64,000 bases of DNA from a bacterium (GCA_016124515.1 WGNN01000006.1:5638-69637), one strand, 5' to 3'. Positions 5,942 to 40,941 are shown, numbered from the stretch's first letter. Notes: a model not told the origin generated them from the letters alone. Made by a program: numbers and translations.

Positions 5942-6034
5942 ACGGCTATACGCTTCCGATTTATTACTTAAAAAAAACTATATTTTTTAACCAGATGGAT
6001 ACATTAACGCAGATTGCTTGAATTGGTTTTGGAC

Positions 6035-7243: not shown

Positions 7244-7247
7244 GGAA

Positions 7248-10320: not shown

Positions 10321-10324
10321 GGTA

Positions 10325-11236
10325 TCAGTTCTTGAATTGAAAATTGGCCGGACTTATATGCCAAAGCAGGCCACGCCATTGGGCTTTGGCCAGGGTAAAT
10401 TTTCCTTTTACGAGCTTCTTTATCAAGTGTAGCGGATTTGCAACCAAAACTAGGTAGGCTATACTAATGAAGCGGGTAAGGCCAACGAAATTTCGCCGAG
10501 CCAACAAAATGCGGTTTCTTGTTTTGTAGTATTCTTTCAACGGACTTTGCTTGCCTACGCTCATGCTTTCTTTGTGGTAAATAAGTGAGTCGTTTTCAAA
10601 CCAAATCTTAAAACCCGCCTTTTGCAATTGCAGGCACCAGTCAAGTTCTTCGTAGTACAAAAAGTAGCCGTCCTCCATGGTTCCGGCCTTTTCTATGGCT
10701 TTTCGCGAAACGGTCATGGCGGCGCCGTGTGCCAAGTGGGTGTAGCCCGATGCGTATTGGCCGCGGTCTTGCTGCCCCCAGCCAATAGCAAAACTGGTGA
10801 GCGTGTATGGATTCAATTGGGTGCTACCCGCATATTGCAAAACACCCGGACTGTGCAAAAACTCAATTTTTGAGGCTACCACCCCCACATCTTCATGACT
10901 TTGAAAAGCATGTACAATGGGTTCGGCAAAATTTGGATGAACCACCGTGTCGTTGTTGAGCAACATAATATACTGCCCTTTGGCCACCGCTATGCCCAGG
11001 TTGTTGCCACCGGCAAAGCCCAGGTTTTCATCGCTGCGAATAACCTGCACTTCGGGAAAGCTTGCATGAATGGCCTCCGCCGGATTCTCTTTTGATGCAT
11101 TGTCAACCACTATTACTTCTATGGCTTCAAAGTGGGCTGCTTTTATTGATTGCAGCATTTCGAGCGTATCGGCGGTACCATTGTAGTTGACGGCAATGAT
11201 AGACAACACCGGATTTTTATGTGCTAATGAAGCCAT
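10325..11236 (-). CDS. Family 2 glycosyltransferase (soluble GT-A)
   Basis: 'LSIIAVNYNG...VIVVDNAS', 'LLNNDTVV'. Confidence 0.85.
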   Translation of the reverse strand: MASLAHKNPVLSIIAVNYNGTADTLEMLQSIKAAHFEAIEVIVVDNASKENPAEAIHASFPEVQVIRSDENLGFAGGNNLGIAVAKGQYIMLLNNDTVVHPNFAEPIVHAFQSHEDVGVVASKIEFLHSPGVLQYAGSTQLNPYTLTSFAIGWGQQDRGQYASGYTHLAHGAAMTVSRKAIEKAGTMEDGYFLYYEELDWCLQLQKAGFKIWFENDSLIYHKESMSVGKQSPLKEYYKTRNRILLARRNFVGLTRFISIAYLVLVANPLHLIKKLVKGKFTLAKAQWRGLLWHISPANFQFKN

Positions 11237-26383: not shown

Positions 26384-26672
26384 AGAACCTTTCGATTTAA
26401 AATGTGGTGGAGCAATATACAGTAAATGTTGGGATTGCGGTGTATCTGCCCATAACCGCGGGAGCATGAATTTCGCCTAACTCACTGCAACAGACAAAAG
26501 TAGGTGCTTTCAGGCATGCAAAAATCACCCGTTCGGGTGATTTTTGGGTGGAAGATTTGTAGTCTCTTTGTGTCAGGTAAAAAAGGTTAGCGGCGGAATG
26601 TAGGCATCAAGTAATAAAGCAGCCCAAACCGCCCAGACAATTGGTTTCGTAATTTTTTAAATTTTACATAAC

Positions 26673-28323: not shown

Positions 28324-31300
28324 ATGCCAACGATATATGACAATATCAGAGAGAAACTAGCTGACGAACTAAAAACAGTAGTTGCTCAATCTTACCGAAC
28401 TGACTTTTGTGTAGGTTATTTCAATTTACGCGGTTGGGGAACCGTTGCTGATTTAATTGACAAATTCGGCGGAACAGATGAAAACTGTTGTCGCCTGATT
28501 GTAGGAATGCAGCGTCCATCAGAAGATGTATTGAAAGAAGTTCTTAGCAATCAAAAAGAAGGCAAGGTTGATCAAGCAAGGGTGGCCTTTTTAAAAAAGG
28601 AAATGGCTCGTGAGTTTAGAGACCAATTAACTTACGGAATCCCAACTTCAAAAGATGAAAATGCCTTAAGGCAACTTTCTGAGCAATTGAAAGCAAAAAA
28701 GGTTATAGTTAAGCTCTATTTGGCGCATACACTTCATGCCAAATTGTACCTGGCTTATAGAGATGACAATAAGGCACCAACTATTGGTTATTTAGGAAGC
28801 AGTAACCTAACTATGTCGGGTTTAGAAAAACAAGGGGAGCTAAATGTTGATGTTTTTGAAAAAGATGCCGCTGATAAACTGGCACAATGGTTTCAAGATA
28901 GATGGGATGACAGATTTGCGATAGATATTACAGACGAACTGGCTGAAATTATTGATGAAAGCTGGGCGGGTGAAAAAGTAATACCACCTTACTATATTTA
29001 TCTTAAAATCGCCTGGCACTTGTCACAAGAAGCTCAAACAGGTGAAAAGAATTTTGAGATTCCGGAGGAATTCAACGATTTGTTTTCATTTCAGAAAAAG
29101 GCGGTGGCTTTGGCCGCTCAACATTTGTACAATAGAAATGGGGTAATGATTGGTGATGTTGTTGGTTTGGGCAAAACCATGACTGCATCTGCATTGGCAA
29201 AGTTGTATGAAGAGACTTTTATCATTGAAACATTGATTATTTGCCCTAAAAATTTGGTTGAGATGTGGGAAGACTATCGCCATAAATACCGATTGAGAGC
29301 AAGGGTGTTCTCAATCTCAAAAGTGAATAAAACTTGGCTTGAAAAAGAAAGAAGGTACAGATTGGTAATAATTGATGAGAGCCACAACCTAAGAAACAGG
29401 GATGGTAAACGATATGGTTTAATAAAAGACTACCTTGAGCAAAATGAGAGTAGAGTAATTCTTTTAACCGCAACACCTTATAATAAGTCTTATTTAGACA
29501 TATCAAGCCAGTTAAGATTGTTCATGTCTGAAGATCAAGATCTAGGTTTCGGTCCAGAGCGTTTTCTTGAAGAAATTGGTGGACAAACAGAGTATGTAGC
29601 GGAATATCAAAGCTCGCCCTTTAGCTTGGTGGCATTTGAAAAAAGTGAGCACGCTGACGACTGGCGAGAGTTGCTTAAAATGTTCTTGGTTAGGCGTACT
29701 AGAACCTTTATTAAAGAAAACTATGCTGAGTTTGACGAGAGTAAAGACCAATATTATTTGACCTATGATGGTGATAAGCGTTATTACTTTCCAAAACGTA
29801 TTCCCAGAAAAATTGAGTACGATTTTGACCCTAACGACCCTGATGATGTTTACGCAAAGCTATTCTCAGCCGATATTGTAAGTAGTTTAAATGCACTTCA
29901 ATTACCTAGATATGGTCTGGGAAATTACATAGAAAATAATAAAAGGGGTACTGCTTCAAATCAAGAAGAAGAGATATTGAGCAATCTTACAATGGCCGGG
30001 AGAAGACTTATGGGCTTTTGCCGAACCAATTTGTTCAAAAGACTGGAAAGTTCAGGTTATTCTTTTCTTCTATCACTTTCAAGGCATGTAATGCGCAATT
30101 ACATCTTTATTTATGCCATTGAAAATAAGCTGGACCTACCCATTGGGGTGCAGGAGCTTGAAATGGACGAGTATTTAGAAGAGCATGATGAAGACTTAGC
30201 TGAATTGGGTGTTTTATCCTTAGAAACGGATGAATCTCATTTTCAAAAATCAGCTAAGAACCTTTACAACGTATTGCGTGACCAAGCCAAAAAACATAAG
30301 TGGATCTCTCCTGAATTCTTTAGAAGGGGTTTAAAGAAGCATTTAAAAGAAGATGCTGCCCGATTAATTGAAATAATTGAAATGGCAAAAAATTGGGATG
30401 CTTCGACCGATAAGCAGATTGATGCTCTCGAAAGACTTTGTCAAAATGATTTTAAAAATGAAAAGGTTTTAGTGTTTACCCAATTTGCCGATACGGCCAA
30501 CTATTTATATAACGAATTAAAGCGAAGAGGTGTAACTCATATTGCCCAGGTAACGGGTGCCAATGAAAACCCAACTGTATTTGCTCATAGGTTTAGCCCT
30601 AATAGTAACAAGTACAAGTTCAAAAAAAATGAAAACGAGCTGAGAATCATAATTACAACGGATGTGCTAAGCGAAGGCCAGAACTTACAAGACGCCCATG
30701 TAATTGTAAATTTTGATTTGCCTTGGGCCTTAATAAGATTGATTCAGCGCGCAGGTAGAGTTGATAGAATTGGCCAAAAAGCACCTGAAATTTTCTGCTA
30801 CTCATTCCTCCCTGCCGATGGATTAGAGACAATTATACAGCTTCGCGGAAGGCTTCAACAACGAATCACCGAAAATGCTGAAGTGGTAGGCTCAGACGAA
30901 ATGTTTTTTGATGGTGATCCAGTGAACATTACAGACCTGTACAACGAAAAAGCGGGAATTTTAGACGAAGATGAAACGGACGATGAAGTGGACTTAACTT
31001 CAAAGGCTTACGAAATTTGGAATCAGGCAACTAAGGCCAATCCCAAGCTGGCCAAAGAGATTAAAGCACTACCGAATGTAGTGTACAGCACCAAACCAAA
31101 ACCCGATGCAGCCATCAACAATGGCGTTATAAGCTACCACAAAACTGCTTTTGGCATTGATGTGCTTACTTGGCTTGATGAAAATGGAAATGTACGCTCT
31201 AAGAGCCAAAATAGAATATTAAACATGCTTGAGTGCAGCTTAGAAACCCCCGCACTTAAACGCTTAGAAAACCACCATGAATTGGTAGGAAAGGCGGTGA

Positions 31301-31653
31301 AACTTGCACAGAAAACCCATAAGAACATGGGCGGCCATTTAGGTAAAAAGAGCAGTGCCAGGTACAAGATTTATCACCGCTTAAAAAGGCTGGAGCAAGA
31401 AAATGAAAACACACTTTTTGAAAGCGAAGATTTGCGCAAGGCCATTGACGATATTTACAAGTTTCCATTGCAAGAAAGTACTAAAACAAGACTCAATAGG
31501 CGTATGCGCATGGGGCTTACTGATGATGAGCTTAGCCAACTTGTAATTGGACTTAGAAACGAAGGTAGATTATGCGTGATAAGTAAAAAGGAAAGTGAAA
31601 CCAATTTGGCACCACAGGTAATTTGTTCAATGGGATTAAAAGAAGTGAATTAA
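28324..31653 (+). CDS. PLD(HKD)-family nuclease fused to an SNF2/ResIII-type SF2 helicase
   Basis: N-terminal single HKD motif 'HAKLYLAYRDD...GSSNLT'. Helicase motifs I 'GDVVGLGKTMTA', II 'IIDESHNLRN', III 'LLTATPYNKS', V/VI 'TTDVLSEGQNLQDAHVIVNFDLPW...QRAGRVDRIGQ'. Confidence 0.85.
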   Translation: MPTIYDNIREKLADELKTVVAQSYRTDFCVGYFNLRGWGTVADLIDKFGGTDENCCRLIVGMQRPSEDVLKEVLSNQKEGKVDQARVAFLKKEMAREFRDQLTYGIPTSKDENALRQLSEQLKAKKVIVKLYLAHTLHAKLYLAYRDDNKAPTIGYLGSSNLTMSGLEKQGELNVDVFEKDAADKLAQWFQDRWDDRFAIDITDELAEIIDESWAGEKVIPPYYIYLKIAWHLSQEAQTGEKNFEIPEEFNDLFSFQKKAVALAAQHLYNRNGVMIGDVVGLGKTMTASALAKLYEETFIIETLIICPKNLVEMWEDYRHKYRLRARVFSISKVNKTWLEKERRYRLVIIDESHNLRNRDGKRYGLIKDYLEQNESRVILLTATPYNKSYLDISSQLRLFMSEDQDLGFGPERFLEEIGGQTEYVAEYQSSPFSLVAFEKSEHADDWRELLKMFLVRRTRTFIKENYAEFDESKDQYYLTYDGDKRYYFPKRIPRKIEYDFDPNDPDDVYAKLFSADIVSSLNALQLPRYGLGNYIENNKRGTASNQEEEILSNLTMAGRRLMGFCRTNLFKRLESSGYSFLLSLSRHVMRNYIFIYAIENKLDLPIGVQELEMDEYLEEHDEDLAELGVLSLETDESHFQKSAKNLYNVLRDQAKKHKWISPEFFRRGLKKHLKEDAARLIEIIEMAKNWDASTDKQIDALERLCQNDFKNEKVLVFTQFADTANYLYNELKRRGVTHIAQVTGANENPTVFAHRFSPNSNKYKFKKNENELRIIITTDVLSEGQNLQDAHVIVNFDLPWALIRLIQRAGRVDRIGQKAPEIFCYSFLPADGLETIIQLRGRLQQRITENAEVVGSDEMFFDGDPVNITDLYNEKAGILDEDETDDEVDLTSKAYEIWNQATKANPKLAKEIKALPNVVYSTKPKPDAAINNGVISYHKTAFGIDVLTWLDENGNVRSKSQNRILNMLECSLETPALKRLENHHELVGKAVKLAQKTHKNMGGHLGKKSSARYKIYHRLKRLEQENENTLFESEDLRKAIDDIYKFPLQESTKTRLNRRMRMGLTDDELSQLVIGLRNEGRLCVISKKESETNLAPQVICSMGLKEVN

Positions 31654-31654
31654 T

Positions 31655-34600
31655 ATGCAAAGTATAAGCAAGCAACAATTCAAAGCTTGGGTTAAAGCAT
31701 TTGATTTTTCTGAGCTTTTTAATCAATTAGGTTGGGACTATGTAGATGATGAAATTTACAAAAAGGTGGGTGATGAAACATTTACTTTTAACCATGTAGC
31801 CAATAAAGAAGGTTTTGCCATTTTAGTAGTTGAGCCTGATAAAAATGGCCAAATTCCAGCCGCCGCAGTAAGGAAAAGAGTGCATACCGAAATAAGCAAA
31901 CTTCACCATGAACACTTGCTCATTTTTATTGATAAAAACAAATCTGCACAGCAATGGGAACTCATTTTAAGAGAACCCAATAAACCCATTAGAACTGTTG
32001 GCCATAAATGGAATAAACAGCAAGACCCCGAATTACTATACCAAAAGCTAGCAGGAGCTTTTTTTAGCTTTGACGAAGAAGGCAACCTTACCATTATTGA
32101 TGTAGTAAACCGCCTTAAAGAAAACTTTGGCGCAAATGCCGAAAAGGTTACCAAAAAATTCTATGCAGAGTTTAAAACCCAACACAAGGCCTTTTTAGAC
32201 TTTATATCAGGCATTGACGACCACATTAAAAAAGGCGAAAACAAAAACAAGCAATGGTATGCTTCGCTCATGCTCAACCGCTTAATGTTTTGCTACTTTA
32301 TACAGAAAAAAGGTTTTTTAGATGGCGATAGAAATTACCTGAGCAACAAACTTGAAGCTTGCAAAAACCTTGGTGCAAATGATCAATTCTATAGCTTTTA
32401 TCGCAGCTTTTTATTAGAGTTATTTCATGATGGTTTGGGTAAACCCGAAGCCAATAGAAATCATAAAATTCCCGTTGATTTAGGCAAAATACCTTACCTA
32501 AACGGTGGTTTGTTTGATGTGCATCAGCTTGAAAAACAGTTTGAAGCCATACAAATTGCTGATGATGCTTTTGAAAAGATATTTGAGTTTTTTGACAAAT
32601 GGGAATGGCATTTAGATACCCGTGAAGATGCAACGGGCAAAACCATAAACCCCGATGTAATAGGCTACATTTTTGAAAAGTACATTAACGAGCGTGCCGC
32701 TATGGGTGCCTATTACACCAAAGAAGATATTACCGAATACATAAGCAAAAACACCATACTGCCTTTTCTTTTTGACGAAACACAAAGGCAATACCCCAAA
32801 GCTTTTAAAACCAATGCCCATATATGGCAATACCTGCAGGCAAGTGGTAGCGACTACATTTACGATGCGGTAAAAAAAGGTGTGCCGCAAGAAGGGGAAC
32901 TTTACAGTGATTTACCTGACGAAATACAGGAAGGTTTTAAACCCGAGCTTGAAGATAAAGTAGTGGCCGAAACCACTGAACCACACCTTTGGGAAATAAG
33001 AAGACCATGGAACCAAGCAGCACCTGAAGAAATTGCCCTGCCCACCGAAACCTACCGCGAGCTTATTGAGCGCCGTAAACGCTATGCCGATATAGCGCAA
33101 AAGATACATGCAGGTGAAATAGAAAAGATAAATGACTTTATAACATACAACCTAAACATAAGACAGTTTACCCAAGATTATTTAGAAACTACCAATGACG
33201 CCGATTTTATTAGGCATTTCTACAAAGCCATAAACAAAGTAACCATCTTAGACCCTACCTGTGGTTCAGGTGCTTTTTTGTTTGCCGCACTTAATATATT
33301 AGAGCCGCTCTACAATACGTGCTTAGACCGCATGGAAGAATTTGTGACTGAAAATCCCGGCAAGTACAAATTCTTTGAAGATACCCTGAATAAGGTAAAC
33401 AGCCCCGAACACCCCAGCCGAACCTATTTTATTTACAAGAGCATCATACTCCATAACCTGTTTGGGGTTGACATAATGAAAGAAGCGGTTGAAATTGCCA
33501 AGCTGCGTTTGTTCTTAAAATTGGTAAGCACAGTTGAAGTTGACTACAAAAAACGAAACCTGGGCCTTGAACCTTTACCTGACATTGACTTTAACATACG
33601 CCACGGCAATACCTTGGTGGGTTTTGCCACCGAGCAAGAATTGCTAAATACCATACAAAAACACGATGCCCTTTTTGCTCAAGACAAATTGGATGAGTTT
33701 AAAGACGAGTGTGATATAGTAGCCAAGGCTTACACTCAGTTTAGCAATTGCCAATTAGACGATAACGTTCCCATTGATGACAAAGCAAAAGCCAAAAACG
33801 ACTTAAACGCTAAACTAGAAACGCTTAACTCAAAACTCAACAAGTACTTAGCCACCAACTACGGTATAGATGCCGATAAAAAACCAAAAGACTACGGCGC
33901 TTGGCTTGAGAGCCACATGCCATTCCATTGGTTTGCCGAGTTTTATCAAATAATAGCAGGCAATGGCGGTTTTGATGTGATTATTGGGAATCCACCATAC
34001 ATAGAATATAGCAAAGTCAGAAAACAATATACCATCGTTAACAAGGATGAAGCAAGTTGCGGTAACCTATTTGGAATCGTAACGACAAAGCTTGATGTTC
34101 TCAAGAATGAACATGGGAGAACAGGGATGATTGTGCCGATTAGTCTAATATGCACGAAGCGCATGTCAAGTGTGTTAGAAGAATTAAAGAACAACAATTT
34201 GTGGCTCAGTCACTATGCAGAAAGACCCAGTAAGTTATTTACAGGAGCCGAAGTGTTGTTGACTATTTATTTAACGGGTGAAACAAATCTGAAGAAATCA
34301 CAAACGTATTCAACTGGATTCACCAAATGGAACTCAAACTTTCGAACATTTTTGTTTGATTCTACGACCTACCAGCCAAACGATTCAATATTCAGAAATT
34401 ATGTATCCACTAAAAGCTCAAGTCAAGTTGATTTAAACATAATTTACAACTTGTTAGAAAGGCAAGAAGTAATTGAAAAAGATATTGTGTCTCAATCAAA
34501 ATTTGAGATTTTCTATAGAATCGGTGGTGGAAGATATTGGAAAATATTTACTGATTTTTCCCCGAGATTCATATTAAATGGTGTTGAAGGAAAGTCCAGT

Positions 34601-35041
34601 CGTGAGAATCGAATTTTCTTTAGAACTGATAGAAATCGCTTTCTAACAATCTCAGCACTTAGTAGCAGCCTATTTTATTATTATTTTATTCACACGACAA
34701 ATTGTCGCGATTTGAACCCAAACGACCTGCGGTCGTTTCCATTACTAGAGAATAAAATAGATAAACATATAGCCACTCAATTGTCTAAACTGGGTGACGA
34801 TTTGATGCGTGATTATCAAAGGACTAGTGAATTCAAGAAAAAAACATCTAGTAAAACCGGTGAAATAGAGTATCAAGAATTCTATCCAAGAAAATCAAAA
34901 GATATCATCGACCAAATCGATACAGTATTAGCGCAGCATTATGGTTTTACCGAAGCAGAATTAGATTTTATCATCAACTACGATTACAAATACCGCATGG
35001 GCGGGGCTTTAAGTGAAGGTGGAGATGGAAAAGAAGAATAA
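31655..35041 (+). CDS. Large gamma-class N6-adenine DNA methyltransferase (Eco57I/PglX/DrmMI-like), 1128 aa
   Basis: Motif X 'GAYYTKEDITEYI', motif I 'LDPTCGSGAFLFAALN', motif IV 'IIGNPPYI'. About 330-aa N-terminal and ~350-aa C-terminal (TRD-like) extensions. Its start is 1 bp after the helicase stop. Confidence 0.85.
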   Translation: MQSISKQQFKAWVKAFDFSELFNQLGWDYVDDEIYKKVGDETFTFNHVANKEGFAILVVEPDKNGQIPAAAVRKRVHTEISKLHHEHLLIFIDKNKSAQQWELILREPNKPIRTVGHKWNKQQDPELLYQKLAGAFFSFDEEGNLTIIDVVNRLKENFGANAEKVTKKFYAEFKTQHKAFLDFISGIDDHIKKGENKNKQWYASLMLNRLMFCYFIQKKGFLDGDRNYLSNKLEACKNLGANDQFYSFYRSFLLELFHDGLGKPEANRNHKIPVDLGKIPYLNGGLFDVHQLEKQFEAIQIADDAFEKIFEFFDKWEWHLDTREDATGKTINPDVIGYIFEKYINERAAMGAYYTKEDITEYISKNTILPFLFDETQRQYPKAFKTNAHIWQYLQASGSDYIYDAVKKGVPQEGELYSDLPDEIQEGFKPELEDKVVAETTEPHLWEIRRPWNQAAPEEIALPTETYRELIERRKRYADIAQKIHAGEIEKINDFITYNLNIRQFTQDYLETTNDADFIRHFYKAINKVTILDPTCGSGAFLFAALNILEPLYNTCLDRMEEFVTENPGKYKFFEDTLNKVNSPEHPSRTYFIYKSIILHNLFGVDIMKEAVEIAKLRLFLKLVSTVEVDYKKRNLGLEPLPDIDFNIRHGNTLVGFATEQELLNTIQKHDALFAQDKLDEFKDECDIVAKAYTQFSNCQLDDNVPIDDKAKAKNDLNAKLETLNSKLNKYLATNYGIDADKKPKDYGAWLESHMPFHWFAEFYQIIAGNGGFDVIIGNPPYIEYSKVRKQYTIVNKDEASCGNLFGIVTTKLDVLKNEHGRTGMIVPISLICTKRMSSVLEELKNNNLWLSHYAERPSKLFTGAEVLLTIYLTGETNLKKSQTYSTGFTKWNSNFRTFLFDSTTYQPNDSIFRNYVSTKSSSQVDLNIIYNLLERQEVIEKDIVSQSKFEIFYRIGGGRYWKIFTDFSPRFILNGVEGKSSRENRIFFRTDRNRFLTISALSSSLFYYYFIHTTNCRDLNPNDLRSFPLLENKIDKHIATQLSKLGDDLMRDYQRTSEFKKKTSSKTGEIEYQEFYPRKSKDIIDQIDTVLAQHYGFTEAELDFIINYDYKYRMGGALSEGGDGKEE

Positions 35042-36080
35042 AAAGGAATTTCTACTCACGCGTAAGCATGTGCAAATTGTTTCGTGGGTTGGTTTGTTAC
35101 TATTAATCTTTTCATTGTTTCTGCCAGCCCTATTAAGTCAAAATACAGGTTGGTGGGATTTTAGTACTACCGGAGAAATTGGCGATACCATTGGCGGTAT
35201 TCTTACACCTGCTATTGCAGTAATTGCCGCAGGTTTAACCTTTCTCGCATTTTACGTTCAGTTTGAAGCCAATCAGCAACAAAAAAATGACATTGCTCGC
35301 GAACGTTTAGAAAGGAAGTTTTATCAGTTATTGGAATTGCATAAAAAGAATGTAGATGAATTACAACTTAATGAAAAAATAAAAGGGCGACACTACTTTC
35401 CTCATTTATTCAATGAGTTTAAAGCCAGCTACTATTTATGTGAAAAATTGATGAAGGAAACGAATCAAGTAGATTCTTTAGATGACGAGATGCTTATTGA
35501 TGTAGCCTATAGATTTATGTTTTTGGGTACTAATTCATTAACTCCTGAAAACATTCCTGTTCTTTTCTCAAGGAGTTCATTTCCCTTTATTCTAAAAGCA
35601 CATAATTTAGCAACTGATGTACTACATCGAAGCTTTGATGGCCACATGAAACAGAATCCACACTTTCCGTTACAGGGATATATTTTTCAAGATAATAATC
35701 CTAAGCGTGGTGAACCATATCTCATTTATCATAAACCCTTTAGCGGGCACTCACATCAATTAGGCCATTATTTTCGAAACTTGTTTCACATGGTGAAACT
35801 TATTGATCAAAATACATGGCTTTCTGATGAAGAGAAAAAAGACTTTACAAGAATAATTCGTGCTCAACTTAGCAATGAAGAGCAGTTGATGCTTTATTAT
35901 AATGCTCAAAGCAATTACGGTAAAGCATGGTTTGAAAATGGCTATTTCAAAAAGTATAAGCTTGTGCACAATATGCCTGTTCAAATGGCTGAGATTGGAC
36001 TGAACCCGAAAAGTAAATTCATAAGTAAGTATGGTGCTTTACCAAATGGCGAAGAATACTTTGAATGGGACGAGCGATGA
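35013..36080 (+). CDS. Membrane protein, possibly of the 'putative phage abortive infection (AbiC-like)' family
   Basis: Two N-terminal TM helices flanking 'GEIGDTIGGILTPAIAVIAAGLTFLAFY', then a soluble ~280-aa domain. The Abi assignment is by recalled motif resemblance only. Confidence 0.4.
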   Translation: MKVEMEKKNKKEFLLTRKHVQIVSWVGLLLLIFSLFLPALLSQNTGWWDFSTTGEIGDTIGGILTPAIAVIAAGLTFLAFYVQFEANQQQKNDIARERLERKFYQLLELHKKNVDELQLNEKIKGRHYFPHLFNEFKASYYLCEKLMKETNQVDSLDDEMLIDVAYRFMFLGTNSLTPENIPVLFSRSSFPFILKAHNLATDVLHRSFDGHMKQNPHFPLQGYIFQDNNPKRGEPYLIYHKPFSGHSHQLGHYFRNLFHMVKLIDQNTWLSDEEKKDFTRIIRAQLSNEEQLMLYYNAQSNYGKAWFENGYFKKYKLVHNMPVQMAEIGLNPKSKFISKYGALPNGEEYFEWDER

Positions 36081-36628
36081 CTAATAAACTACTTGACAAT
36101 TTCAGAAGAAAAGTTGCCTTTAAAACATCTTTATCAGATGCTTTTAGAAGGGGTCATGTTTACAATACTGATTTTACAGAATCACAAAAGAATAAGGCAA
36201 AGGCAAGGCTAATTCCTATTCTAAAAGAAAAACTACCTTCAATTATTGAATGTTTAGATATTGAAAATGGTTACACGGAAGAAAATCTTTGCAATCAAAT
36301 AGAAAAGCTTGCAAACGATATTACCAAGCTATTGCCAAATGATTTGAACAATAGCCGTTTCAGAATAGGAACAGCCCAAAAGCTCATCAACGTATATTGG
36401 AAGTTTCTTTGGCTTTTTGAGCTTACCGAAAAGGAGCCATTGCATTGCCCGATAGATTCGATAATTCTTGGTACCTTAGATGAACCATTTAAAAGTTTAA
36501 GATGGACACAACTTGATTCAATAGGCCAGTACAAAGAAATTATTGAAGAAATACGTATAAAGGCAGAAGCTAAAGACCAATCAATTGCCGTTTGGGAGTT
36601 GGAAGTATATGACCAAAAAGTGAATTAA
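36077..36628 (+). CDS. Hypothetical protein (183 aa), translationally coupled (ATGA overlap) to the upstream Abi-like gene
   Basis: ATG at 36077 overlaps TGA at 36078-36080. No recognisable motif. Confidence 0.5.
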   Translation: MTNKLLDNFRRKVAFKTSLSDAFRRGHVYNTDFTESQKNKAKARLIPILKEKLPSIIECLDIENGYTEENLCNQIEKLANDITKLLPNDLNNSRFRIGTAQKLINVYWKFLWLFELTEKEPLHCPIDSIILGTLDEPFKSLRWTQLDSIGQYKEIIEEIRIKAEAKDQSIAVWELEVYDQKVN

Positions 36629-36637
36629 ATAATCAGT

Positions 36638-37102
36638 ATGACATTTGCCAACGAATCAGACTTTGAAGCCTATCTAAGAGGTGAAATTATTAAACCGATA
36701 ATCACCAGTCATAAGGAGTATTACTTAATGGAGAGCAAAAAGGCAGTTGATATACTTATTTGTAAAAATGGTTCTAATCCTTCATTGTACTTCATTGAAG
36801 TAAAGTATCACAAAAAACTACATGGAAGATTAGGTATAGGCCAAAGAAAAGGTGTCGGTTTTCAGCCCGAGATACTAAGCAGTAAACCGACATATTTCCA
36901 GAATAACCTTAGATGGGTAATGGGCTCTGAAAGTCATAATGGCTTTTTGTGGCTTCATAATGACGAAATTACCGAGTATCTTAATGCCGGAATGGTGGGA
37001 GGCAAATACAACGGGGTGCGGAAAAAAATCTTCAATGAAAAACCACTTTTAAACACCGCCCAATTGGAGAGCAATTTAAGAAGTTGGTTAGGTGTTGAAT
37101 AA
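36638..37102 (+). CDS. Small PD-(D/E)xK-like (restriction-endonuclease-fold) protein candidate
   Basis: 'AVDILICKNG-x11-YFIEVKY' fits the hhhD...(D/E)xK core, with an upstream acidic 'FEAYLRGE'. Confidence 0.45.
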   Translation: MTFANESDFEAYLRGEIIKPIITSHKEYYLMESKKAVDILICKNGSNPSLYFIEVKYHKKLHGRLGIGQRKGVGFQPEILSSKPTYFQNNLRWVMGSESHNGFLWLHNDEITEYLNAGMVGGKYNGVRKKIFNEKPLLNTAQLESNLRSWLGVE

Positions 37103-37140: not shown

Positions 37141-37506
37141 ATGAAAATTGGAATTCAAAATTTTTTAGCCTTCATAATTCTCAACTTTGGTATGTTGATG
37201 ATACCTTTCATCGTGTTGCAGCTGCATGCTAATGATGTTCAACTTCACGAATTTTCAATAGCACTGTCGTTTTACCTTGTAGCACTTGCGTTTACTTCAA
37301 GTACGGTTATTGGGTTCATTTCTCTACTAGTTCTCTCTATTTTCACCCTTTTTGACTATGCTTTTATTGATCGAACAATACCGGTAACAAAATTGGATTA
37401 TCATGTTGCCTTATACATCGTGGCCTTTATTGCTACAATATTGATATCGTATGAAAAATACGTGAGACAAGGCCAACCAATAATTGAAATAAGGCAATTA
37501 TCATGA
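37141..37506 (+). CDS. Small integral membrane protein (3-4 TM)
   Basis: Hydrophobic throughout. ATGA overlap with the next gene. Confidence 0.4.
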   Translation: MKIGIQNFLAFIILNFGMLMIPFIVLQLHANDVQLHEFSIALSFYLVALAFTSSTVIGFISLLVLSIFTLFDYAFIDRTIPVTKLDYHVALYIVAFIATILISYEKYVRQGQPIIEIRQLS

Positions 37507-38324
37507 CGCTAATCACAATTACTATTTGCTCGCTCGCTTTGTTACCTTTGGTGTGGCAATTTGGTGCAAACATTAACGCGGACTTAAAATTTAAACGGGT
37601 TCTTAAAGCGAATAAGGAAGAAATCCTTGAGTTTATGAGTGCCATTGGCTTTCGAAGTGACCCACCTAACCCTTTTCGAGTAAACTATGCATTATATAAT
37701 TTGCTGTACATAGAGTTTGATAAGATTATAAAGGAAAAGCTGACAGGTGGTGCCAAGGCCATTATTCTGGAAAGCTTTTCACATAAAAACATTCCTCAAA
37801 CTTTAAGATTCTTGAACCGAATGCTCCCTGTAATTGGTATTGCGAGAATTGAATTTGAAGAAGCCGCACTCAAATCAACATTAGAGCAGGTACAATACAA
37901 AAAAGAGAGTGAGCAAAATGAAGAAATCAAGAGACTGAATAAAATGCTTGAAAAAGCAAATATTAAACAAAAGACAATTGAGAAGCTCGGTGAAGAAGTG
38001 AAGACTGCTTCGCAGTCAGAACAAGGTTTAGGAGTTTCAAAAGACTCTGCGATTGCAACCCAAGAATATACCATGAAGGTTAAAGAAAGAACAAGCCGCG
38101 TTCAAAGTCTTAATGATCAATTTGACAATGAGTATAGCAAATTACAATCGCTCTTTGATCGTATTGAAAACAAATTGACTGAAGACGAAAATTATTCTTT
38201 TTTCAAGAAAATGAAGGAAGTCTCTGAACGTTTAAAATCCTTAGAAGAAAATCAAAGGTATATTAATGAAGAGACCAAGAGAACTACTGAAGAGTTTCAG
38301 GAAGGTCTTGAAAAAAATGACTAG
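37503..38324 (+). CDS. Membrane-anchored coiled-coil protein
   Basis: N-terminal TM 'ITICSLALLPLVW', then a K/E-rich heptad-like region. Confidence 0.45.
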   Translation: MTLITITICSLALLPLVWQFGANINADLKFKRVLKANKEEILEFMSAIGFRSDPPNPFRVNYALYNLLYIEFDKIIKEKLTGGAKAIILESFSHKNIPQTLRFLNRMLPVIGIARIEFEEAALKSTLEQVQYKKESEQNEEIKRLNKMLEKANIKQKTIEKLGEEVKTASQSEQGLGVSKDSAIATQEYTMKVKERTSRVQSLNDQFDNEYSKLQSLFDRIENKLTEDENYSFFKKMKEVSERLKSLEENQRYINEETKRTTEEFQEGLEKND

Positions 38325-38494
38325 TAGTCGTCGATATTGTCTTGTATATGAGTGCAAGGTGATTAACCAAATTAAGCAGGCCATGACTGATTAACTTGCC
38401 TTTTACCTTAAGATGTTTTGATTGAAGTGAATAGCCGACTGAGTTTTAAGAAACTGACCAATTGGAAGCTTAAATTGCAATAGAATTAGCACAA

Positions 38495-38941
38495 ATGGAA
38501 TACCTAGGAAACAAAGAACTACTGAAACTAAAGAAAGTTTGTTTCTTATGCAGCAGAAAAATAGCTCCCAGTGCCATACTCAAGTGTTACGATTGGGCTA
38601 CGGATATGCGCAAAAAGCAGCAGTGCGTAATAATGGGTGCACACAGCCCTATAGAAAAAGATGTTTTCGACATTTTGCTCAAGGGTTCACAACCCCTTAT
38701 CTTGGTCTTGGCTAGGGGCATGAAAAGTGTTTGGAGCTCAGAAGTGCTTGATCAGATAAAAGCCGGAAGACTGTTGGTTATTGCCCCATTTGACAAAAAT
38801 GTAAAGCGTATAAGTAAGGAAACAAGTAAAAAAAGGAATGCGCTTCTTGTTTCGCTATCCGCCGAATTGGTTATCGGTTACCTTTCTACAAACAGCGATT
38901 TAAAAACACTCATTTCGGAAAGCCCATATATCATATTATAA
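38495..38941 (+). CDS. Standalone DprA/Smf-like Rossmann (SLOG-superfamily) domain protein
   Basis: 'VCFLCSRKIA' aligns with DprA 'VAIVGSRxAS'. 'CVIMGAHSPIEKDVFDILLKGSQPLILVLARGM' aligns with 'VVSGLARGIDAAAHRGAL..G.TIAVLGCG'. 'RNALLVSLSAELVI' aligns with 'RNRIISGLS..VVVVE'. Confidence 0.5.
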   Translation: MEYLGNKELLKLKKVCFLCSRKIAPSAILKCYDWATDMRKKQQCVIMGAHSPIEKDVFDILLKGSQPLILVLARGMKSVWSSEVLDQIKAGRLLVIAPFDKNVKRISKETSKKRNALLVSLSAELVIGYLSTNSDLKTLISESPYIIL

Positions 38942-38950
38942 CTAATCGAT

Positions 38951-39442
38951 ATGGACATTAGATTTAAAAATATAACCTTTACAAGCTTTTCACACCACAA
39001 ATCCACTCCTCATAATCCCCTCAATATGCACCTGACAAAATACCTCCCATTCATTAGCTTAAGCATGTTTTTGCTTCTCTCCACCAGCTGTGCCACTTCC
39101 TATCGTTTTAACCAAATACGGAGGTATGATGCAACCGGAAACTTACAAGACAGCCTTGAAAGGGACTTTGTTGTAAAAATAAATCCGCGCAAAAACTTGG
39201 TGGTTTTCCGGCTCGGGCAACAAAACATTGAATACTTGGCCAATGAAATCAGCTATAAATACCCGCCATTCACCTTTCGAAAGAAAAAATCCAATCGGCA
39301 GGGAGTGGCCATATATTTTGATAATAAGGACTACCTGTACATCAATTTCAATGGACCAAAAAAAACGGCCAACTCAGGTTATATTACCTTGCACGATTCA
39401 ACTGATATTTTGGGTTTTGGTTTGGCATTTGAAAAAGAATGA
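38951..39442 (+). CDS. Hypothetical secreted/lipoprotein
   Basis: Hydrophobic segment 'LPFISLSMFLLLSTSC' (lipobox-like 'STSC'). Confidence 0.4.
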   Translation: MDIRFKNITFTSFSHHKSTPHNPLNMHLTKYLPFISLSMFLLLSTSCATSYRFNQIRRYDATGNLQDSLERDFVVKINPRKNLVVFRLGQQNIEYLANEISYKYPPFTFRKKKSNRQGVAIYFDNKDYLYINFNGPKKTANSGYITLHDSTDILGFGLAFEKE

Positions 39443-39527
39443 TTTTTACGAAAAGCCAAATTTCGATTTAATTCTTCACCATAAATTCTTTAAGAAAAAA
39501 AATGCCTTAAGTTCGTCTTAAATAAGT

Positions 39528-40088
39528 ATGAAAAGGTATATGGAACCCGAAAACCACCACCGCAACGTTCGCCAATCGATGGTTGGTGAACTGCTTCAGT
39601 CAAAAAGAAAATCTGTTGATCACCTTACCGAATCAATCGCCAATTACAATGAAATTCTGGAATTTGTAAGGACTCCGGCGCTACTTCACCACATGAATGG
39701 CCTTATCGCATGGCTCATCAGATTTGTGGCTATGATACTTGGGTTGGCGTCAATACTTACATCTTTGCTTTTATTTTTCTCTAAAGCATGGCCCGACTCG
39801 TGGTGGCAAACCCTGCTTGCCAACGAAACCTTGGTGGGAAACGAACCTGTTGCAGAAGTCAAACTTGAAATGATGTTGGTATTCGTCTTTTTTGGTCTTA
39901 TTACCATGATTATTGGCTTATTACTCATCACTTTATCATGGCTAATTGGCTCAGTAAGAAACAGGTCAAAAACTATAAGGGATTTATCAATGGTTATTAC
40001 AGAAATGTTGTCGCACGAAAAAGACTTTTTAGAAAGCGAAAAAAACGCCTACTTAAACCTGAGCAAGGAATTAGACAATTGGACTTGA
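39528..40088 (+). CDS. Hypothetical membrane protein (3 TM)
   Basis: Three hydrophobic helices. No known motif. Confidence 0.4.
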   Translation: MKRYMEPENHHRNVRQSMVGELLQSKRKSVDHLTESIANYNEILEFVRTPALLHHMNGLIAWLIRFVAMILGLASILTSLLLFFSKAWPDSWWQTLLANETLVGNEPVAEVKLEMMLVFVFFGLITMIIGLLLITLSWLIGSVRNRSKTIRDLSMVITEMLSHEKDFLESEKNAYLNLSKELDNWT

Positions 40089-40158: not shown

Positions 40159-40941
40159 ATGAACAAATTCCTACTACACCTGGCGTATGATGGAAGCGGT
40201 TTTCGTGGCTGGCAGCGACAAAAGGTGGTTGCTTCTGTGCAACAGACACTTGAAGAAAGCCTTTGCCGCGTGCTGGGCGAAACCGTAACCCTGCTGGGTT
40301 GTGGACGCACCGATGCGCAAGTGCATGCCTCGCAGTATTTTGCGCAGTTTACCTGCCGTGGCGCGGTTCCTGAAAAACTGGCCTTTATCCTGAATAAAAA
40401 CCTGCCTGAGAGCATCAGAATTTATGATGTGATAGCGGTTCCTGCCGGTTTCAATGTACTGCATCAAGCCACCTGCCGGCATTACCATTATTATTTCCAC
40501 ACGTTGCAAAATCCGTTTATACAAGCCTATAGCAGCTATTATACCTTTCCTACCTTTCAGCTTGAAAAGGCAGGGGAAGTGCTGGCACTATACAAGCAAT
40601 TCAACGACTTTAAAGCCTATTGCCTGACACCCGAAAAACACAACCACACGCTGGTAACGCTGGAAAATGCCACCATACAACACAACCCTCAAAACGGTTT
40701 GTATTGCATCCACTTTGCGGCCAAACGCTTTTTGAAAGGCATGGTAAGGGCTTTGGTTTATGATGTTTTGCAAGTGGCAAGCGGCCAAGTGGATTTGGAT
40801 GTTATTCTGCAAAAACTATCGGACAAAAACCGCACGCCCCACCTGCAATTGGCACATCCGCAGGGTTTGTATCTCAGCCAAATTGAATACCGTATTGAGG
40901 TTCCACCCCCACTCGTCGAGCCTATACGCATGCTGCTTTAG
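40159..40941 (+). CDS. truA: tRNA pseudouridine(38-40) synthase
   Basis: 'LHLAYDGSGFRGWQRQ' and the catalytic 'GCGRTDAQVHA' motif. Confidence 0.9.
   Translation: MNKFLLHLAYDGSGFRGWQRQKVVASVQQTLEESLCRVLGETVTLLGCGRTDAQVHASQYFAQFTCRGAVPEKLAFILNKNLPESIRIYDVIAVPAGFNVLHQATCRHYHYYFHTLQNPFIQAYSSYYTFPTFQLEKAGEVLALYKQFNDFKAYCLTPEKHNHTLVTLENATIQHNPQNGLYCIHFAAKRFLKGMVRALVYDVLQVASGQVDLDVILQKLSDKNRTPHLQLAHPQGLYLSQIEYRIEVPPPLVEPIRMLL

What the first reader, a model, noticed from the sequence alone, without database searches (positions are those of the whole stretch)
37141..40088. Second block of island genes, including a standalone DprA/Smf-like (SLOG) Rossmann-domain protein
The block holds a small membrane protein, a membrane coiled-coil protein, a 148-aa protein, a lipoprotein and a 3-TM protein.

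The 148-aa protein aligns by motif to the DprA Rossmann core. Its 'CSRKIA', 'MGAHSPIEKDVFDILL...LVLARGM' and 'RNALLVSLSAELVI' match DprA 'GSRxAS', 'SGLARGIDAAAH...IAVLGCG' and 'RNRIISGLS..VVVE'. It lacks the DprA C-terminal domains.

Free-standing SLOG domains have been predicted as nucleotide or DNA sensors in conflict systems. Two of the ORF pairs overlap by ATGA, which suggests functional coupling.
Basis: inference. Interest (0 to 1): 0.55.

Follow-up and report, generated by a model that had tools for sequence, protein, structure and literature searches.

The report
Mini-DprA subunit of a restriction-like system
The 148-residue protein really is a cut-down DprA/SLOG domain, but it is partnered with the nuclease-helicase and DNA methyltransferase genes 3.5 kb upstream, as the conserved last gene of a widespread restriction-like defence system, and not with the membrane genes beside it.

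Summary
The five ORFs exist as described. The 148-aa protein is a DprA-type SLOG domain: Pfam PF02481 E 1.4e-6, PADLOC PsyrA 5e-9, AlphaFold pLDDT 94.5, and top Foldseek hits to DprA and ShosA.

The proposed coupling to the flanking membrane and lipoprotein genes fails. Those genes are ORFans and are absent from all 86 loci that carry a homologue of the 148-aa gene.

The gene is instead syntenic with two upstream window genes: an HKD(PLD)-SNF2 helicase (28324-31653) and an MmeI/Eco57I-like N6-adenine methyltransferase (31655-35041). The order is helicase, methyltransferase, a variable gap, then mini-DprA, all on one strand.
- Starting from mini-DprA, 23 of 37 loci with at least 8 kb upstream have both partners intact.
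- Starting from the methyltransferase, 21 of 22 loci with at least 5 kb downstream have mini-DprA.
- Pairwise distances of the three proteins co-vary (r 0.68-0.77).

The gap holds swappable defence cargo such as AbiC, RhuM, Fic, DUF1016 and DarTG. In the window the cargo is an AbiC-like gene plus four small ORFs, two of them inside the finding.

I infer that mini-DprA is a ssDNA- or base-binding regulatory, probably protective, subunit. I found no published description of this system.

The parts
28324..31653 (+). HEL: 1109-aa protein with an N-terminal single-HKD PLD-family nuclease domain fused to an SNF2 ATPase. It is the presumed restriction/translocase subunit.
   Evidence: Pfam PLDc_2 and RE_NgoFVII (aa 112-194), SNF2-rel_dom and Helicase_C. 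PADLOC 'HKD+Snf2' C3a139 at E 9e-55, plus DrmD and PLD_Helicase hits. PDB sequence hits are SNF2/Rad54 and RapA. It lies upstream of MT in 74 of 80 MT-anchored loci.
31655..35041 (+). MT: 1128-aa MmeI/Eco57I-like gamma-class N6-adenine methyltransferase with a variable C-terminal target-recognition region. It is the presumed modification and specificity subunit.
   Evidence: PADLOC REase_MTase_IIG PDLC03628 at E 4.5e-286 over the full length. Pfam Eco57I, MmeI_Mtase and DUF7814. 'DPTCGSGAFL' and 'GNPPY' are invariant, while aa ~800-1050 are poorly conserved in 22 orthologues. The start codon is 1 nt after the HEL stop.
35013..36080 (+). Cargo gene 1: AbiC-like protein with two TM segments (355 aa), inserted between MT and mini-DprA.
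   Evidence: Pfam putAbiC at E 3.5e-20. PADLOC AbiC and AbiP. The same family sits between MT and mini-DprA in L026 and L080.
36065..37102 (+). Cargo genes 2-3: ORFs of 187 aa (36065/36077-36628) and 154 aa (36638-37102).
   Evidence: No hit in Pfam, PADLOC, NCBIfam or PHROGs. Absent from the 86 related loci. An ATGA overlap with the AbiC-like gene lies at 36077. The 154-aa ORF shows a 'D..EVK' PD-(D/E)xK-like motif by eye, which I did not test.
37141..38324 (+). Cargo genes 4-5, inside the finding: a 121-aa membrane protein with 3 hydrophobic segments and a 273-aa protein with an N-terminal TM segment and a charged helical tail. The two overlap by ATGA.
   Evidence: The 273-aa protein matches only itself among 5.8 billion proteins. 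Neither gene occurs in the related loci.
38495..38941 (+). Mini-DprA (SLOG): the 148-aa conserved terminal gene of the HEL-MT system.
   Evidence: Searches support the fold and family. Searches support the synteny and co-divergence with HEL and MT.
38951..40088 (+). Two downstream ORFs inside the finding but outside the system: a 163-aa lipoprotein-like ORF (probable start 39026) and a 186-aa protein with 2 TM segments. They lie just before truA (40159-40941).
   Evidence: Both are ORFan or near-ORFan and absent from the related loci. truA is identified by Pfam PseudoU_synth_1.

Best explanation
The 148-aa gene encodes a minimal DprA-type SLOG domain ('mini-DprA'). It is the conserved third and last gene of a horizontally mobile, ATP-dependent restriction-modification-like system.

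The other two genes lie upstream in the same window. One is an HKD(PLD)-nuclease/SNF2-translocase (HEL, 28324-31653). The other is an MmeI/Eco57I-like N6-adenine methyltransferase with a variable recognition domain (MT, 31655-35041).

The segment between MT and mini-DprA is a hotspot that takes up unrelated defence 'cargo' genes. In this window the cargo is the AbiC-like gene plus four small ORFs. Two of these are the 121-aa and 273-aa ORFs of the finding. The 163-aa and 186-aa ORFs lie downstream of the system and are unrelated ORFans.

Proposed mechanism, all inferred:
1. MT reads and methylates a target sequence.
2. At unmodified sites HEL translocates along the DNA. Because each HEL has only one HKD motif, it would cut after two copies dimerise, in the manner of type I, type ISP and type III enzymes.
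3. Mini-DprA binds ssDNA or a flipped or free base through the retained DprA pocket (S20-R21 and R114-N115). It acts as a regulatory, most likely protective, subunit. It would restrain HEL or favour methylation where single-stranded or transiently unmodified self DNA appears.

My sub-confidences are about 0.8 that it is a component of the HEL-MT system, about 0.5 that it is a nucleic-acid- or nucleotide-binding regulator, and about 0.3 that its role is specifically protective.
For: Shown:
- Fold and family. AF2 gives pLDDT 94.5 and pTM 0.89. The Foldseek top hits are HpDprA 4ljr (E 3e-8, TMq 0.77), ShosA 8zva, and DprA 3maj and 3uqz, followed by LOG, YpsA and the Moco-carrier protein.
- Forward synteny. 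In 86 loci anchored on mini-DprA, MT is detected in 53 and HEL in 31, always in the order HEL, MT, gap, mini-DprA on one strand. Among the 37 loci with at least 8 kb upstream, 23 have intact HEL and MT, 5 have an MT remnant or a divergent MT, and 9 have neither.
- Reverse synteny. In 80 metagenome loci anchored on MT alone, HEL is upstream in 74. Mini-DprA is downstream in 50 overall, in 21 of 22 loci with at least 5 kb downstream, and in 14 of 14 with at least 8 kb.
- Tight coupling. The gap between MT and mini-DprA is about 0-40 nt in 27 of 82 loci, for example L001.
- Co-divergence in 57 loci. Mantel r is 0.73 for HEL-MT, 0.68 for HEL-SLOG and 0.77 for MT-SLOG, each with p <= 5e-4.
- Distribution. 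The system is patchy across Bacteroidota, Spirochaetota, Desulfobacterota, Clostridia, Planctomycetota, Omnitrophota and Ignavibacteria.
- Cargo. The genes in the gap are the families also reported inside other restriction and defence operons: RhuM, Fic/DOC, DUF1016/YhcG, KilA-N, PDDEXK_3, DarT-DarG, AAA_14 and AbiC.
- Pocket residues. The S-R and R-N residues named as DprA ssDNA-pocket motifs in PMC3950713 are conserved in the family.

Precedents from the literature:
- H. pylori DprA inhibits restriction enzymes and stimulates methyltransferases (Dwivedi 2013, as cited in PMC4489622).
- The DprA-homology region of RqlI/PsyrA is needed to restrain the helicase RqlH, and the two proteins interact (PMC4670107).
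- ShosA is a DprA-like antitoxin that binds ssDNA and RecA (PMC12961424).

Asymmetry: mini-DprA without intact HEL-MT is common (14 of 37 loci). HEL-MT without mini-DprA is rare (at most 1 of 22). Protective partners such as orphan methyltransferases and antitoxins show the same pattern.
Against: - No function has been tested. Synteny and co-divergence show co-inheritance, not physical or functional interaction.
- Mini-DprA also occurs without HEL-MT. It follows a type ISP enzyme in L033, a Wadjet-like DUF3584 cluster in L082 and a DEAD helicase in L057. In several loci it sits next to core genes with only cargo-type neighbours.
- In the window it is 3.45 kb from MT and has a 170-nt upstream spacer of its own.
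- DprA motif 1 is altered: Gly is replaced by Cys, and Arg is Gln in some members. The Pfam score is 1.5 bits below the gathering score.
- The invariant H50-S51-x-x-E54-K55-D56 block has no DprA counterpart and could be catalytic.
- I could not compute any protein-protein prediction with HEL or MT.
Confidence: 0.6

Rival explanations
1. One reading: the SLOG protein is a nucleotide or DNA sensor that works with the adjacent membrane, coiled-coil and lipoprotein genes as one conflict module, with a signal sensed by SLOG and membrane effectors.
For: The genes are adjacent on one strand inside a low-GC defence island. One ATGA overlap links the 121-aa and 273-aa ORFs. SLOG domains act as signal sensors in Thoeris ThsA (PMC7272460, listed).
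Against: The four neighbours have no homologue in any of the 86 SLOG loci. The 273-aa and 186-aa proteins are ORFans among 5.8 billion proteins, and the 163-aa protein is nearly so. The SLOG family is always a ~150-aa stand-alone protein in other contexts. The ATGA overlap does not involve the SLOG gene.
Confidence: 0.03
2. Mini-DprA is an independent single-gene element, either defence cargo or a conserved hotspot-flanking gene. It tends to sit at the 3' edge of restriction-type islands and is not a subunit of HEL-MT.
For: It occurs without HEL-MT in 9 of 37 well-covered loci, and with only MT remnants or a divergent MT in 5 more. It follows a type ISP enzyme, a Wadjet-like cluster and a DEAD helicase. 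In Anaerophaga the identical protein sits beside mnmE with or without the MT gene. In L041 and L053 a 5' fragment of the SLOG gene precedes the cargo gene c5 and an intact copy follows it, so c5 and mini-DprA may move together.
Against: Mini-DprA is present in 21 of 22 loci downstream of MT in the MT-anchored set. The spacer is 0-40 nt in about a third of loci. It co-diverges with HEL and MT as strongly as they do with each other. Other cargo families vary from locus to locus, whereas this one is constant and always last.
Confidence: 0.15
3. Mini-DprA is an enzyme in the manner of LOG or nucleoside 2-deoxyribosyltransferase. It would process nucleotides, for example by hydrolysing modified phage nucleotides or by making or degrading a signal, rather than bind DNA.
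For: SLOG relatives include the LOG N-glycosidases, which appear among the fold hits (1t35, 5zbk). The family has an invariant polar cluster, H50, S51, E54, K55, D56 and R74, at the C-terminal ends of the strands. That is where Rossmann-type active sites lie.
Against: The LOG signature 'PGGxGTxxE' described in PMC3950713 is absent. The closest folds are all DprA or ShosA, with E-values about four orders of magnitude better than LOG. No nucleotide-signalling partner such as a cyclase, TIR or CARF domain is conserved in the loci.
Confidence: 0.12
4. Mini-DprA is a positive sensor. It would detect phage ssDNA or replication intermediates and switch HEL on, in the way originally proposed for DprA-like ShosA.
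For: [quoted passage not shown] The ssDNA-pocket residues are retained.
Against: Restriction-type systems already discriminate self through methylation. The survival pattern of orphans fits a protective partner better than an activator. ShosA and RqlI were shown to neutralise their toxins, not to activate them.
Confidence: 0.1

Closest known systems
DprA/Smf Rossmann-fold domain (Pfam PF02481; HpDprA 4LJR, SpDprA 3UQZ)
   Same: It has the same fold, with TMq 0.73-0.77. It shares the N-terminal 'Y.GN..LL' motif, the S-R loop and the R-N helix motif. H. pylori DprA is reported to modulate restriction-modification enzymes.
   Different: It is only 148 aa and covers profile positions 33-161 of 212. 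It has no SAM or C-terminal winged-helix domain. Motif 1 is C-S-R/Q rather than G-S/T/A-R. It has its own invariant 'HSxxEKD' block. It is encoded in a mobile restriction-like operon, not a competence or housekeeping locus, and its score is just below the Pfam gathering score.
ShosA (ShosTA) and PsyrA/RqlI (PsyrTA): DprA-like antitoxins of defence systems
   Same: Each has a DprA-like domain in an anti-phage or toxin-restraining role. The PADLOC PsyrA model hits at E 5e-9, and ShosA 8zva is the second-best fold hit. RqlI partners a helicase.
   Different: Those proteins are 300-400 aa and carry extra domains. Their partner is a PRTase or a RecQ-PRTase toxin in a two-gene module. Here the partners are an HKD-SNF2 protein and a methyltransferase, there is no PRTase, and only 123 of the 398 PsyrA profile positions match.
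Type ISP (LlaGI/LlaBIII), type I and type III ATP-dependent restriction-modification enzymes
   Same: All combine a nuclease, an SF2 translocase, an N6A methyltransferase and a variable recognition domain. One mini-DprA homologue follows a true type ISP gene (L033). Cargo genes of the families seen here are embedded in the operon.
   Different: The functions are split over two polypeptides. The nuclease is a single-HKD PLD type rather than Mrr/PD-(D/E)xK, and the motor is SNF2-type. To my knowledge no type I, ISP or III system has a DprA-like third subunit.
Class 1 DISARM (DrmD SNF2 helicase, DrmMI methylase, DrmC PLD, DrmA, DrmB)
   Same: HEL hits DrmD models at E 3e-32 and MT hits DrmMI at E 1e-20. 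The combination of PLD, SNF2 and an adenine methylase echoes DrmC, DrmD and DrmMI.
   Different: No DrmA/DrmB (DUF1998) core is present in the island. The PLD domain is fused to the SNF2 protein. DISARM has no DprA-like component.
Hma system (HmaA Snf2-nuclease with HmaB and HmaC), which has defence genes inserted in its operon
   Same: Both have an Snf2 helicase fused to a nuclease plus a methylase-like partner, and both have a cargo-insertion hotspot inside the operon (PMC11232893).
   Different: HmaA carries a C-terminal PD-(D/E)xK nickase domain. HmaC is an AAA+ protein. The match of HEL to the HmaA model is only partial.

Membership tests
DprA/Smf domain (PF02481) | Score at or above the Pfam gathering threshold | tested here: inconclusive
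   The score is 28.1 bits against a cut-off of 29.6, at E 1.4e-6. Most family members carry a precomputed PF02481 hit.
DprA/Smf domain (PF02481) | DprA-type Rossmann fold | tested here: met
   The model has pLDDT 94.5. The 14 best PDB matches are all DprA or ShosA, with E 3e-8 to 4e-6 and TMq 0.67-0.77.
DprA/Smf domain (PF02481) | Motif 1, 'G-S/T/A-R', in the beta3-alpha3 loop (PMC3950713) | tested here: inconclusive
   The window has C19-S20-R21. S20 is invariant, the Gly is replaced by a near-invariant Cys, and the Arg is Gln in about a quarter of members.
DprA/Smf domain (PF02481) | Motif 2, 'F/L/Y-x-x-R-N/D' (or the variant 'A-M-x-R-N/D') | tested here: inconclusive
   The window has S111-K-K-R114-N115 and the family consensus is A-x-x-R-N. 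R114 and N115 are at least 90% conserved. The first position matches the 'A' variant, not F/L/Y.
DprA/Smf domain (PF02481) | Full ~205-residue domain with dimerisation, ssDNA binding and RecA loading | not testable with these tools
   Only profile positions 33-161 of 212 are covered. The biochemical activities cannot be computed.
SLOG superfamily | Fold shared with LOG, YpsA and the Moco-carrier protein | tested here: met
   1t35 (LOG-like), 2nx2 (YpsA) and 2iz7/6y01 (Moco-carrier protein) match with probability 0.99-1.00 and E 8e-4 to 5e-3.
ShosTA / PsyrTA toxin-antitoxin defence systems | An adjacent PRTase (ShosT) or RecQ-PRTase (PsyrT/RqlH) toxin gene | tested here: not met
   No such domain occurs in any island gene according to PADLOC or Pfam, and none occurs among the recurrent neighbours in 166 loci.
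Type IIG (MmeI-like) restriction-modification, for the MT partner | Full-length match to a type IIG RE-MTase model, with the SAM motif and NPPY | tested here: met
   PDLC03628 matches at E 4.5e-286 over 9-1119. 'DPTCGSGAFL' and 'GNPPY' are invariant. I did not test whether the N-terminal nuclease motif is intact.
Type ISP restriction-modification | A single polypeptide with Mrr nuclease, SF2 helicase, coupler, MTase and TRD | tested here: not met
   The window has two polypeptides, a PLD nuclease, and no ISP_coupler or Type_ISP_C hits. These domains are present in the L033 gene.
Class 1 DISARM | A DrmA helicase, DrmB (DUF1998) and DrmC core | tested here: not met
   Only partial DrmD, DrmMI and generic helicase hits are found, and there is no DUF1998 gene in the island.
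HEL-MT-mini-DprA synteny group (defined here) | An HKD-SNF2 gene, then an MmeI-like MTase gene, then a ~150-aa DprA-like gene, on the same strand, with optional cargo before the last gene | tested here: met
   The window has 28324-31653, 31655-35041 and 38495-38941. The same order is seen in 23 genome loci and about 50 metagenome loci.

The most novel reading that the evidence does not exclude
HKD-SNF2 helicase, MmeI-like methyltransferase and mini-DprA together form a so-far undescribed three-component class of ATP-dependent restriction-modification system. In it a minimal DprA domain would sense ssDNA or RecA status and gate restriction, as a built-in restriction-alleviation or anti-autoimmunity device. 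The interval between MT and mini-DprA would be a dedicated cargo hotspot, remodelled by recombination within the mini-DprA gene itself. SLOG 5' scars upstream of the cargo were seen in five loci, and a partial second copy downstream of the cargo in two more.
Probability: 0.35. Interest if true: 0.7.

Novelty: new variant of a known kind. Interest (0 to 1): 0.55.

Why it matters
How translocating restriction enzymes avoid killing their own host during replication, repair and DNA uptake is only partly understood. The known example, to my knowledge, is ClpXP-dependent restriction alleviation in type I systems.

A conserved DprA-like subunit in a restriction-type operon would be a genetically tractable candidate for such a safeguard. 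It would also extend the emerging role of DprA-like domains in immunity, now known from ShosA and PsyrA, from toxin-antitoxin modules to restriction-modification.

Two practical points follow:
- The ~150-aa gene is a useful marker for annotating this three-gene system, which tools now label as 'type IIG' or as DNA-modification 'other' plus a hypothetical protein.
- It also marks the defence cargo embedded between MT and mini-DprA. In this window that cargo includes four uncharacterised ORFs that are candidate new defence genes.

Tried and rejected
- **Coupling to the neighbours.** I ran tblastn with all island proteins against 86 SLOG-anchored loci. The 121, 273, 163, 186, 187 and 154-aa ORFs gave zero hits. 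Homologue searches found only self-matches. I rejected this coupling.
- **Plasmid or phage origin.** The 148-aa protein has no tblastn hit in PLSDB plasmids or INPHARED phages. BFVD gives only weak DprA-like and DUF2493 fold hits.
- **A conserved recombination site or promoter upstream of mini-DprA in cargo-bearing loci.** The only recurrent k-mers are AT-rich. The sigma-70 and terminator scans are at background level. No tRNA occurs in the window.
- **Membership of ShosTA, PsyrTA, DISARM or type ISP.** Defining partners are absent.
- **Sequence link to solved structures.** The family profile reaches SpDprA only at E 0.84. MT has no PDB relative.
- **Literature.** Ten full-text searches found no description of an HKD-SNF2, MmeI-like MTase and DprA-like system. 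Burroughs et al. 2015, the paper that defined SLOG, is not held in the library, so prior mention there cannot be excluded.


Full report
**1. What is in the sequence**

The window holds a low-GC island at about 26.6-40.1 kb. GC there is 0.35-0.39, against about 0.45 on either side. All island genes are on the + strand. In order they are:
- a 516-aa protein with a signal peptide and no family match;
- an 1109-aa HKD/PLD-SNF2 protein, here called HEL (28324-31653);
- an 1128-aa MmeI/Eco57I-like methyltransferase, here called MT (31655-35041);
- an AbiC-like protein (35013-36080);
- ORFs of 187, 154, 121 and 273 aa;
- the 148-aa ORF (38495-38941);
- ORFs of 163 and 186 aa.

The core genome resumes with truA at 40159. 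The window has no tRNA.

The five ORFs of the finding are at the stated coordinates.
- Hydropathy supports 3 TM segments in the 121-aa protein, 1 in the 273-aa protein and 2 in the 186-aa protein.
- Only one ATGA overlap joins two of the five genes, at 37503.
- Another ATGA overlap lies at 36077, outside the finding.

**2. The 148-aa protein is a minimal DprA-type SLOG domain**

Sequence profiles agree:
- Pfam DNA_processg_A matches at E 1.4e-6 with 28.1 bits, against a gathering score of 29.6. It aligns aa 3-127 to profile positions 33-161 of 212.
- The PADLOC PsyrA model matches at 5.2e-9.
- TIGR00732 matches at 3.9e-4.

A 30-sequence alignment gave an AlphaFold2 model with pLDDT 94.5 and pTM 0.89.
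- The 14 best PDB matches are H. pylori, R. palustris and S. pneumoniae DprA and the DprA-like antitoxin ShosA. Their E-values run from 3e-8 to 4e-6 and TMq from 0.67 to 0.77.
- Next come LOG-type proteins, YpsA and Moco-carrier proteins, which together make up the rest of the SLOG superfamily.

Wang et al. define two ssDNA-pocket motifs for DprA: 'G-S/T/A-R' and 'F/L/Y-x-x-R-N/D', the latter with an 'A-M-x-R-N/D' variant (PMC3950713). The family here has C-S-R/Q and A/S-x-x-R-N. The key Ser-Arg and Arg-Asn residues are therefore kept, but the motifs are not canonical. An invariant 'HSxxEKD' block is specific to this family.

**3. It is not linked to its immediate neighbours**

More than 464 relatives exist. 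Almost all are 145-160-aa stand-alone proteins about 50% identical to the window protein. I fetched 86 loci anchored on such relatives.
- None contains a homologue of the 121, 273, 163 or 186-aa ORFs, nor of the 187 or 154-aa ORFs.
- The 273-aa and 186-aa proteins match only themselves among 5.8 billion proteins.
- The lipoprotein-like ORF has three weak relatives among 1.84 billion representatives.

**4. Its real partners are HEL and MT**

Forward test, anchored on mini-DprA:
- MT is detected in 53 of the 86 loci and HEL in 31. The order is always HEL, MT, gap, mini-DprA on one strand.
- Many loci are truncated upstream. Among the 37 genome loci with at least 8 kb upstream, 23 have intact HEL and MT, 5 have an MT remnant or a divergent MT, and 9 have neither.

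Reverse test, anchored on MT alone:
- I scanned metagenome contigs with an MT alignment, using the peptide patterns LMFCYFI and GSGAFLFAA.
- HEL is upstream in 74 of 80 loci and mini-DprA is downstream in 50 of 80.
- Mini-DprA is found in 21 of 22 loci with at least 5 kb downstream and in 14 of 14 with at least 8 kb.
- Most loci that lack it end inside large cargo genes.

Other points:
- The spacer between MT and mini-DprA is about 0-40 nt in 27 of 82 loci. In the rest it is mostly 0.3-2.7 kb, with a maximum of 7.7 kb. In the window it is 3.45 kb.
- Pairwise distances of the three proteins co-vary in 57 loci. Mantel r is 0.73 for HEL-MT, 0.68 for HEL-mini-DprA and 0.77 for MT-mini-DprA, each with p <= 5e-4.
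- The hosts span Bacteroidota, Spirochaetaceae, Desulfobacterales, Clostridia, Planctomycetes, Omnitrophota and Ignavibacteria/Chlorobiota. The unit is therefore horizontally mobile.
- I found no copy on plasmids or phages.

**5. The gap is a cargo hotspot**

The genes between MT and mini-DprA, and sometimes between HEL and MT, vary from locus to locus. They include:
- a DUF4062, HATPase_c_4 and Fic-like_C protein, in 24 loci;
- RhuM, Fic/DOC and DUF1016/YhcG;
- KilA-N and PDDEXK_3;
- DarT with a macro-domain DarG;
- AAA_14/DUF4143;
- AbiC-like proteins, in the window, L026 and L080.

A comparable insertion hotspot inside an operon was reported for the Hma system (PMC11232893).

Recombination scars point to exchange within the mini-DprA gene itself:
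- Five loci (L041, L053, L062, L072, L085) carry a 5' fragment of the gene, covering aa ~1-27 up to 1-55, upstream of the cargo, with an intact copy downstream.
- Two loci (L060, L130) have a partial second copy after the cargo.
- The window shows no such scar.
- No conserved DNA site was found upstream of mini-DprA.

The finding's 'block' is therefore composite. The 121-aa and 273-aa ORFs are the tail of the cargo, the 148-aa gene is the terminal gene of the system, and the 163-aa and 186-aa ORFs are unrelated ORFans between the system and truA.

**6. How it probably works**

Shown:
- HEL has a single HKD PLD/NgoFVII-type nuclease domain followed by SNF2 motifs.
- MT has the SAM-binding and NPPY motifs and a poorly conserved C-terminal region of the kind seen in target-recognition domains.

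Inferred:
- MT marks self DNA by methylation.
- HEL translocates from unmodified sites. It would need two HKD domains to cut, which resembles collision-dependent cleavage by type I, type ISP and type III enzymes.
- Mini-DprA is a nucleic-acid- or base-binding regulatory subunit.

Three precedents support a regulatory role:
- H. pylori DprA inhibits restriction enzymes and stimulates methyltransferases (cited in PMC4489622).
- The DprA-homology region of RqlI/PsyrA is required to restrain the helicase RqlH, and the two proteins interact (PMC4670107).
- ShosA neutralises its toxin through ssDNA and RecA binding (PMC12961424).

The survival pattern of orphans also fits a protective partner. Mini-DprA without intact HEL-MT is common (14 of 37 loci), while HEL-MT without mini-DprA is rare (at most 1 of 22). 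This includes L058, where HEL and MT are broken into fragments but mini-DprA is intact.

The alternatives are an independent cargo gene, a LOG-like enzyme or a positive sensor. They are listed with their tests in the rival explanations, and none is excluded by computation alone.

**7. Comparison with known systems, and novelty**

- The domain belongs to the SLOG superfamily and is DprA-like by fold. It is an atypical, truncated member by motif and by Pfam score.
- The locus is not ShosTA or PsyrTA, because it has no PRTase toxin.
- It is not DISARM, because it has no DrmA or DrmB.
- It is not type ISP, because it is split over two polypeptides, uses a PLD nuclease and has no ISP coupler or specificity domain.
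- One mini-DprA homologue does follow a true type ISP gene (L033).
- PADLOC recognises MT as 'type IIG' and HEL as 'HKD+Snf2' or 'PLD_Helicase', but has no model for the third gene other than the partial PsyrA hit.
- Ten literature searches found no description of this three-gene system. The paper that defined SLOG is not held in the library, so an earlier mention there cannot be ruled out.

I rate the finding as a new variant of a known kind: an ATP-dependent restriction-modification-like system with a DprA-like accessory subunit. Interest is moderate at 0.55. The comparative-genomic signal is strong and the gene is a good handle on how restriction is controlled, but the function rests entirely on inference.

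Noticed in passing
L041 8254-8334, L053 6845-6925, L062 8983-9108, L072 9589-9681, L085 3701-3862; also L060 9462-9665 and L130 10393-10662: Short 5' fragments of the mini-DprA gene (aa ~1-27 up to 1-55) lie upstream of the cargo genes, with an intact copy downstream. In L060 and L130 a partial second copy lies after the cargo. These look like scars of cargo exchange by recombination within the mini-DprA gene.
   Followed up: partly
L033 3483-8423 (type ISP enzyme), then RhuM at 8934-9986, then mini-DprA at 9983-10453: A mini-DprA homologue is the last gene after a true single-polypeptide type ISP restriction-modification enzyme (Mrr_cat_2, ResIII, ISP_coupler, N6_Mtase, Type_ISP_C). The link may extend to other translocating restriction enzymes.
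   Followed up: partly
L082 1758-10450; L057 2-7718 and L075: Mini-DprA also follows a four-gene cluster containing a DUF3584 SMC-like protein, which I take to be Wadjet-like. It also follows a 1036-aa DEAD helicase preceded by a recurring three-gene set (clusters c126-c128, one with a weak HerA_C hit). I did not characterise these contexts further.
   Followed up: partly
L058 (CP064983.1) ~3343-9983 and L039 (same genome): In one Bacteroidota MAG, HEL and MT are broken into many short ORFs, apparently pseudogenised, while the adjacent mini-DprA is intact. A second, orphan mini-DprA in the same chromosome follows Fic and PDDEXK_3 genes next to PKD-domain core genes.
   Followed up: no
L003/L004/L054 versus L005/L006 (Anaerophaga and related metagenomes): The identical 148-aa mini-DprA sits beside mnmE in every case. 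Some assemblies have an MT gene and a 362-aa cargo gene upstream. Others have only a 75-aa Fic-like_C remnant next to an RND efflux operon. This is a snapshot of system loss with mini-DprA retained.
   Followed up: partly
window 36638-37102 (+): The 154-aa cargo ORF reads '...KAVDILICKNG...LYFIEVKYHKK...', a D...E-x-K pattern typical of small PD-(D/E)xK nucleases. No library recognises it.
   Followed up: no
window 35013-36080 (+); L026 and L080: An AbiC-like abortive-infection protein with 2 TM segments (Pfam putAbiC, E 3.5e-20) overlaps the MT stop codon. It recurs as the cargo between MT and mini-DprA in two unrelated loci. An ATGA overlap with the next ORF lies at 36077.
   Followed up: partly
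L024 8331-10004 and L045: A DarT-DarG pair (ssDNA ADP-ribosyltransferase and macro-domain antitoxin) is the cargo directly upstream of mini-DprA. A toxin that targets ssDNA thus sits next to a putative ssDNA binder.
   Followed up: no
window 26673-28223 (+): The first low-GC island gene encodes a 516-aa protein with a signal peptide. It has no hit in Pfam, NCBIfam or PADLOC and no homologue in the related loci. I did not establish whether it belongs to the island's defence content.
   Followed up: no
window 26.6-40.1 kb: The island is bounded by a T9SS-sorted surface protein gene (24122-26467, - strand) and truA (40159-40941). No integrase or tRNA was found, and I did not look for flanking repeats, so the insertion mechanism is unknown.
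   Followed up: no
L009 451-4302, L016 3050-6787, L053 927-4355: A second, divergent family of ~1140-1280-aa MmeI-like methyltransferases, about 25% identical to the window MT, also has cargo and a terminal mini-DprA downstream. In L009 and L016 a KilA-N gene lies directly upstream. This suggests a broader superfamily of such operons.
   Followed up: no
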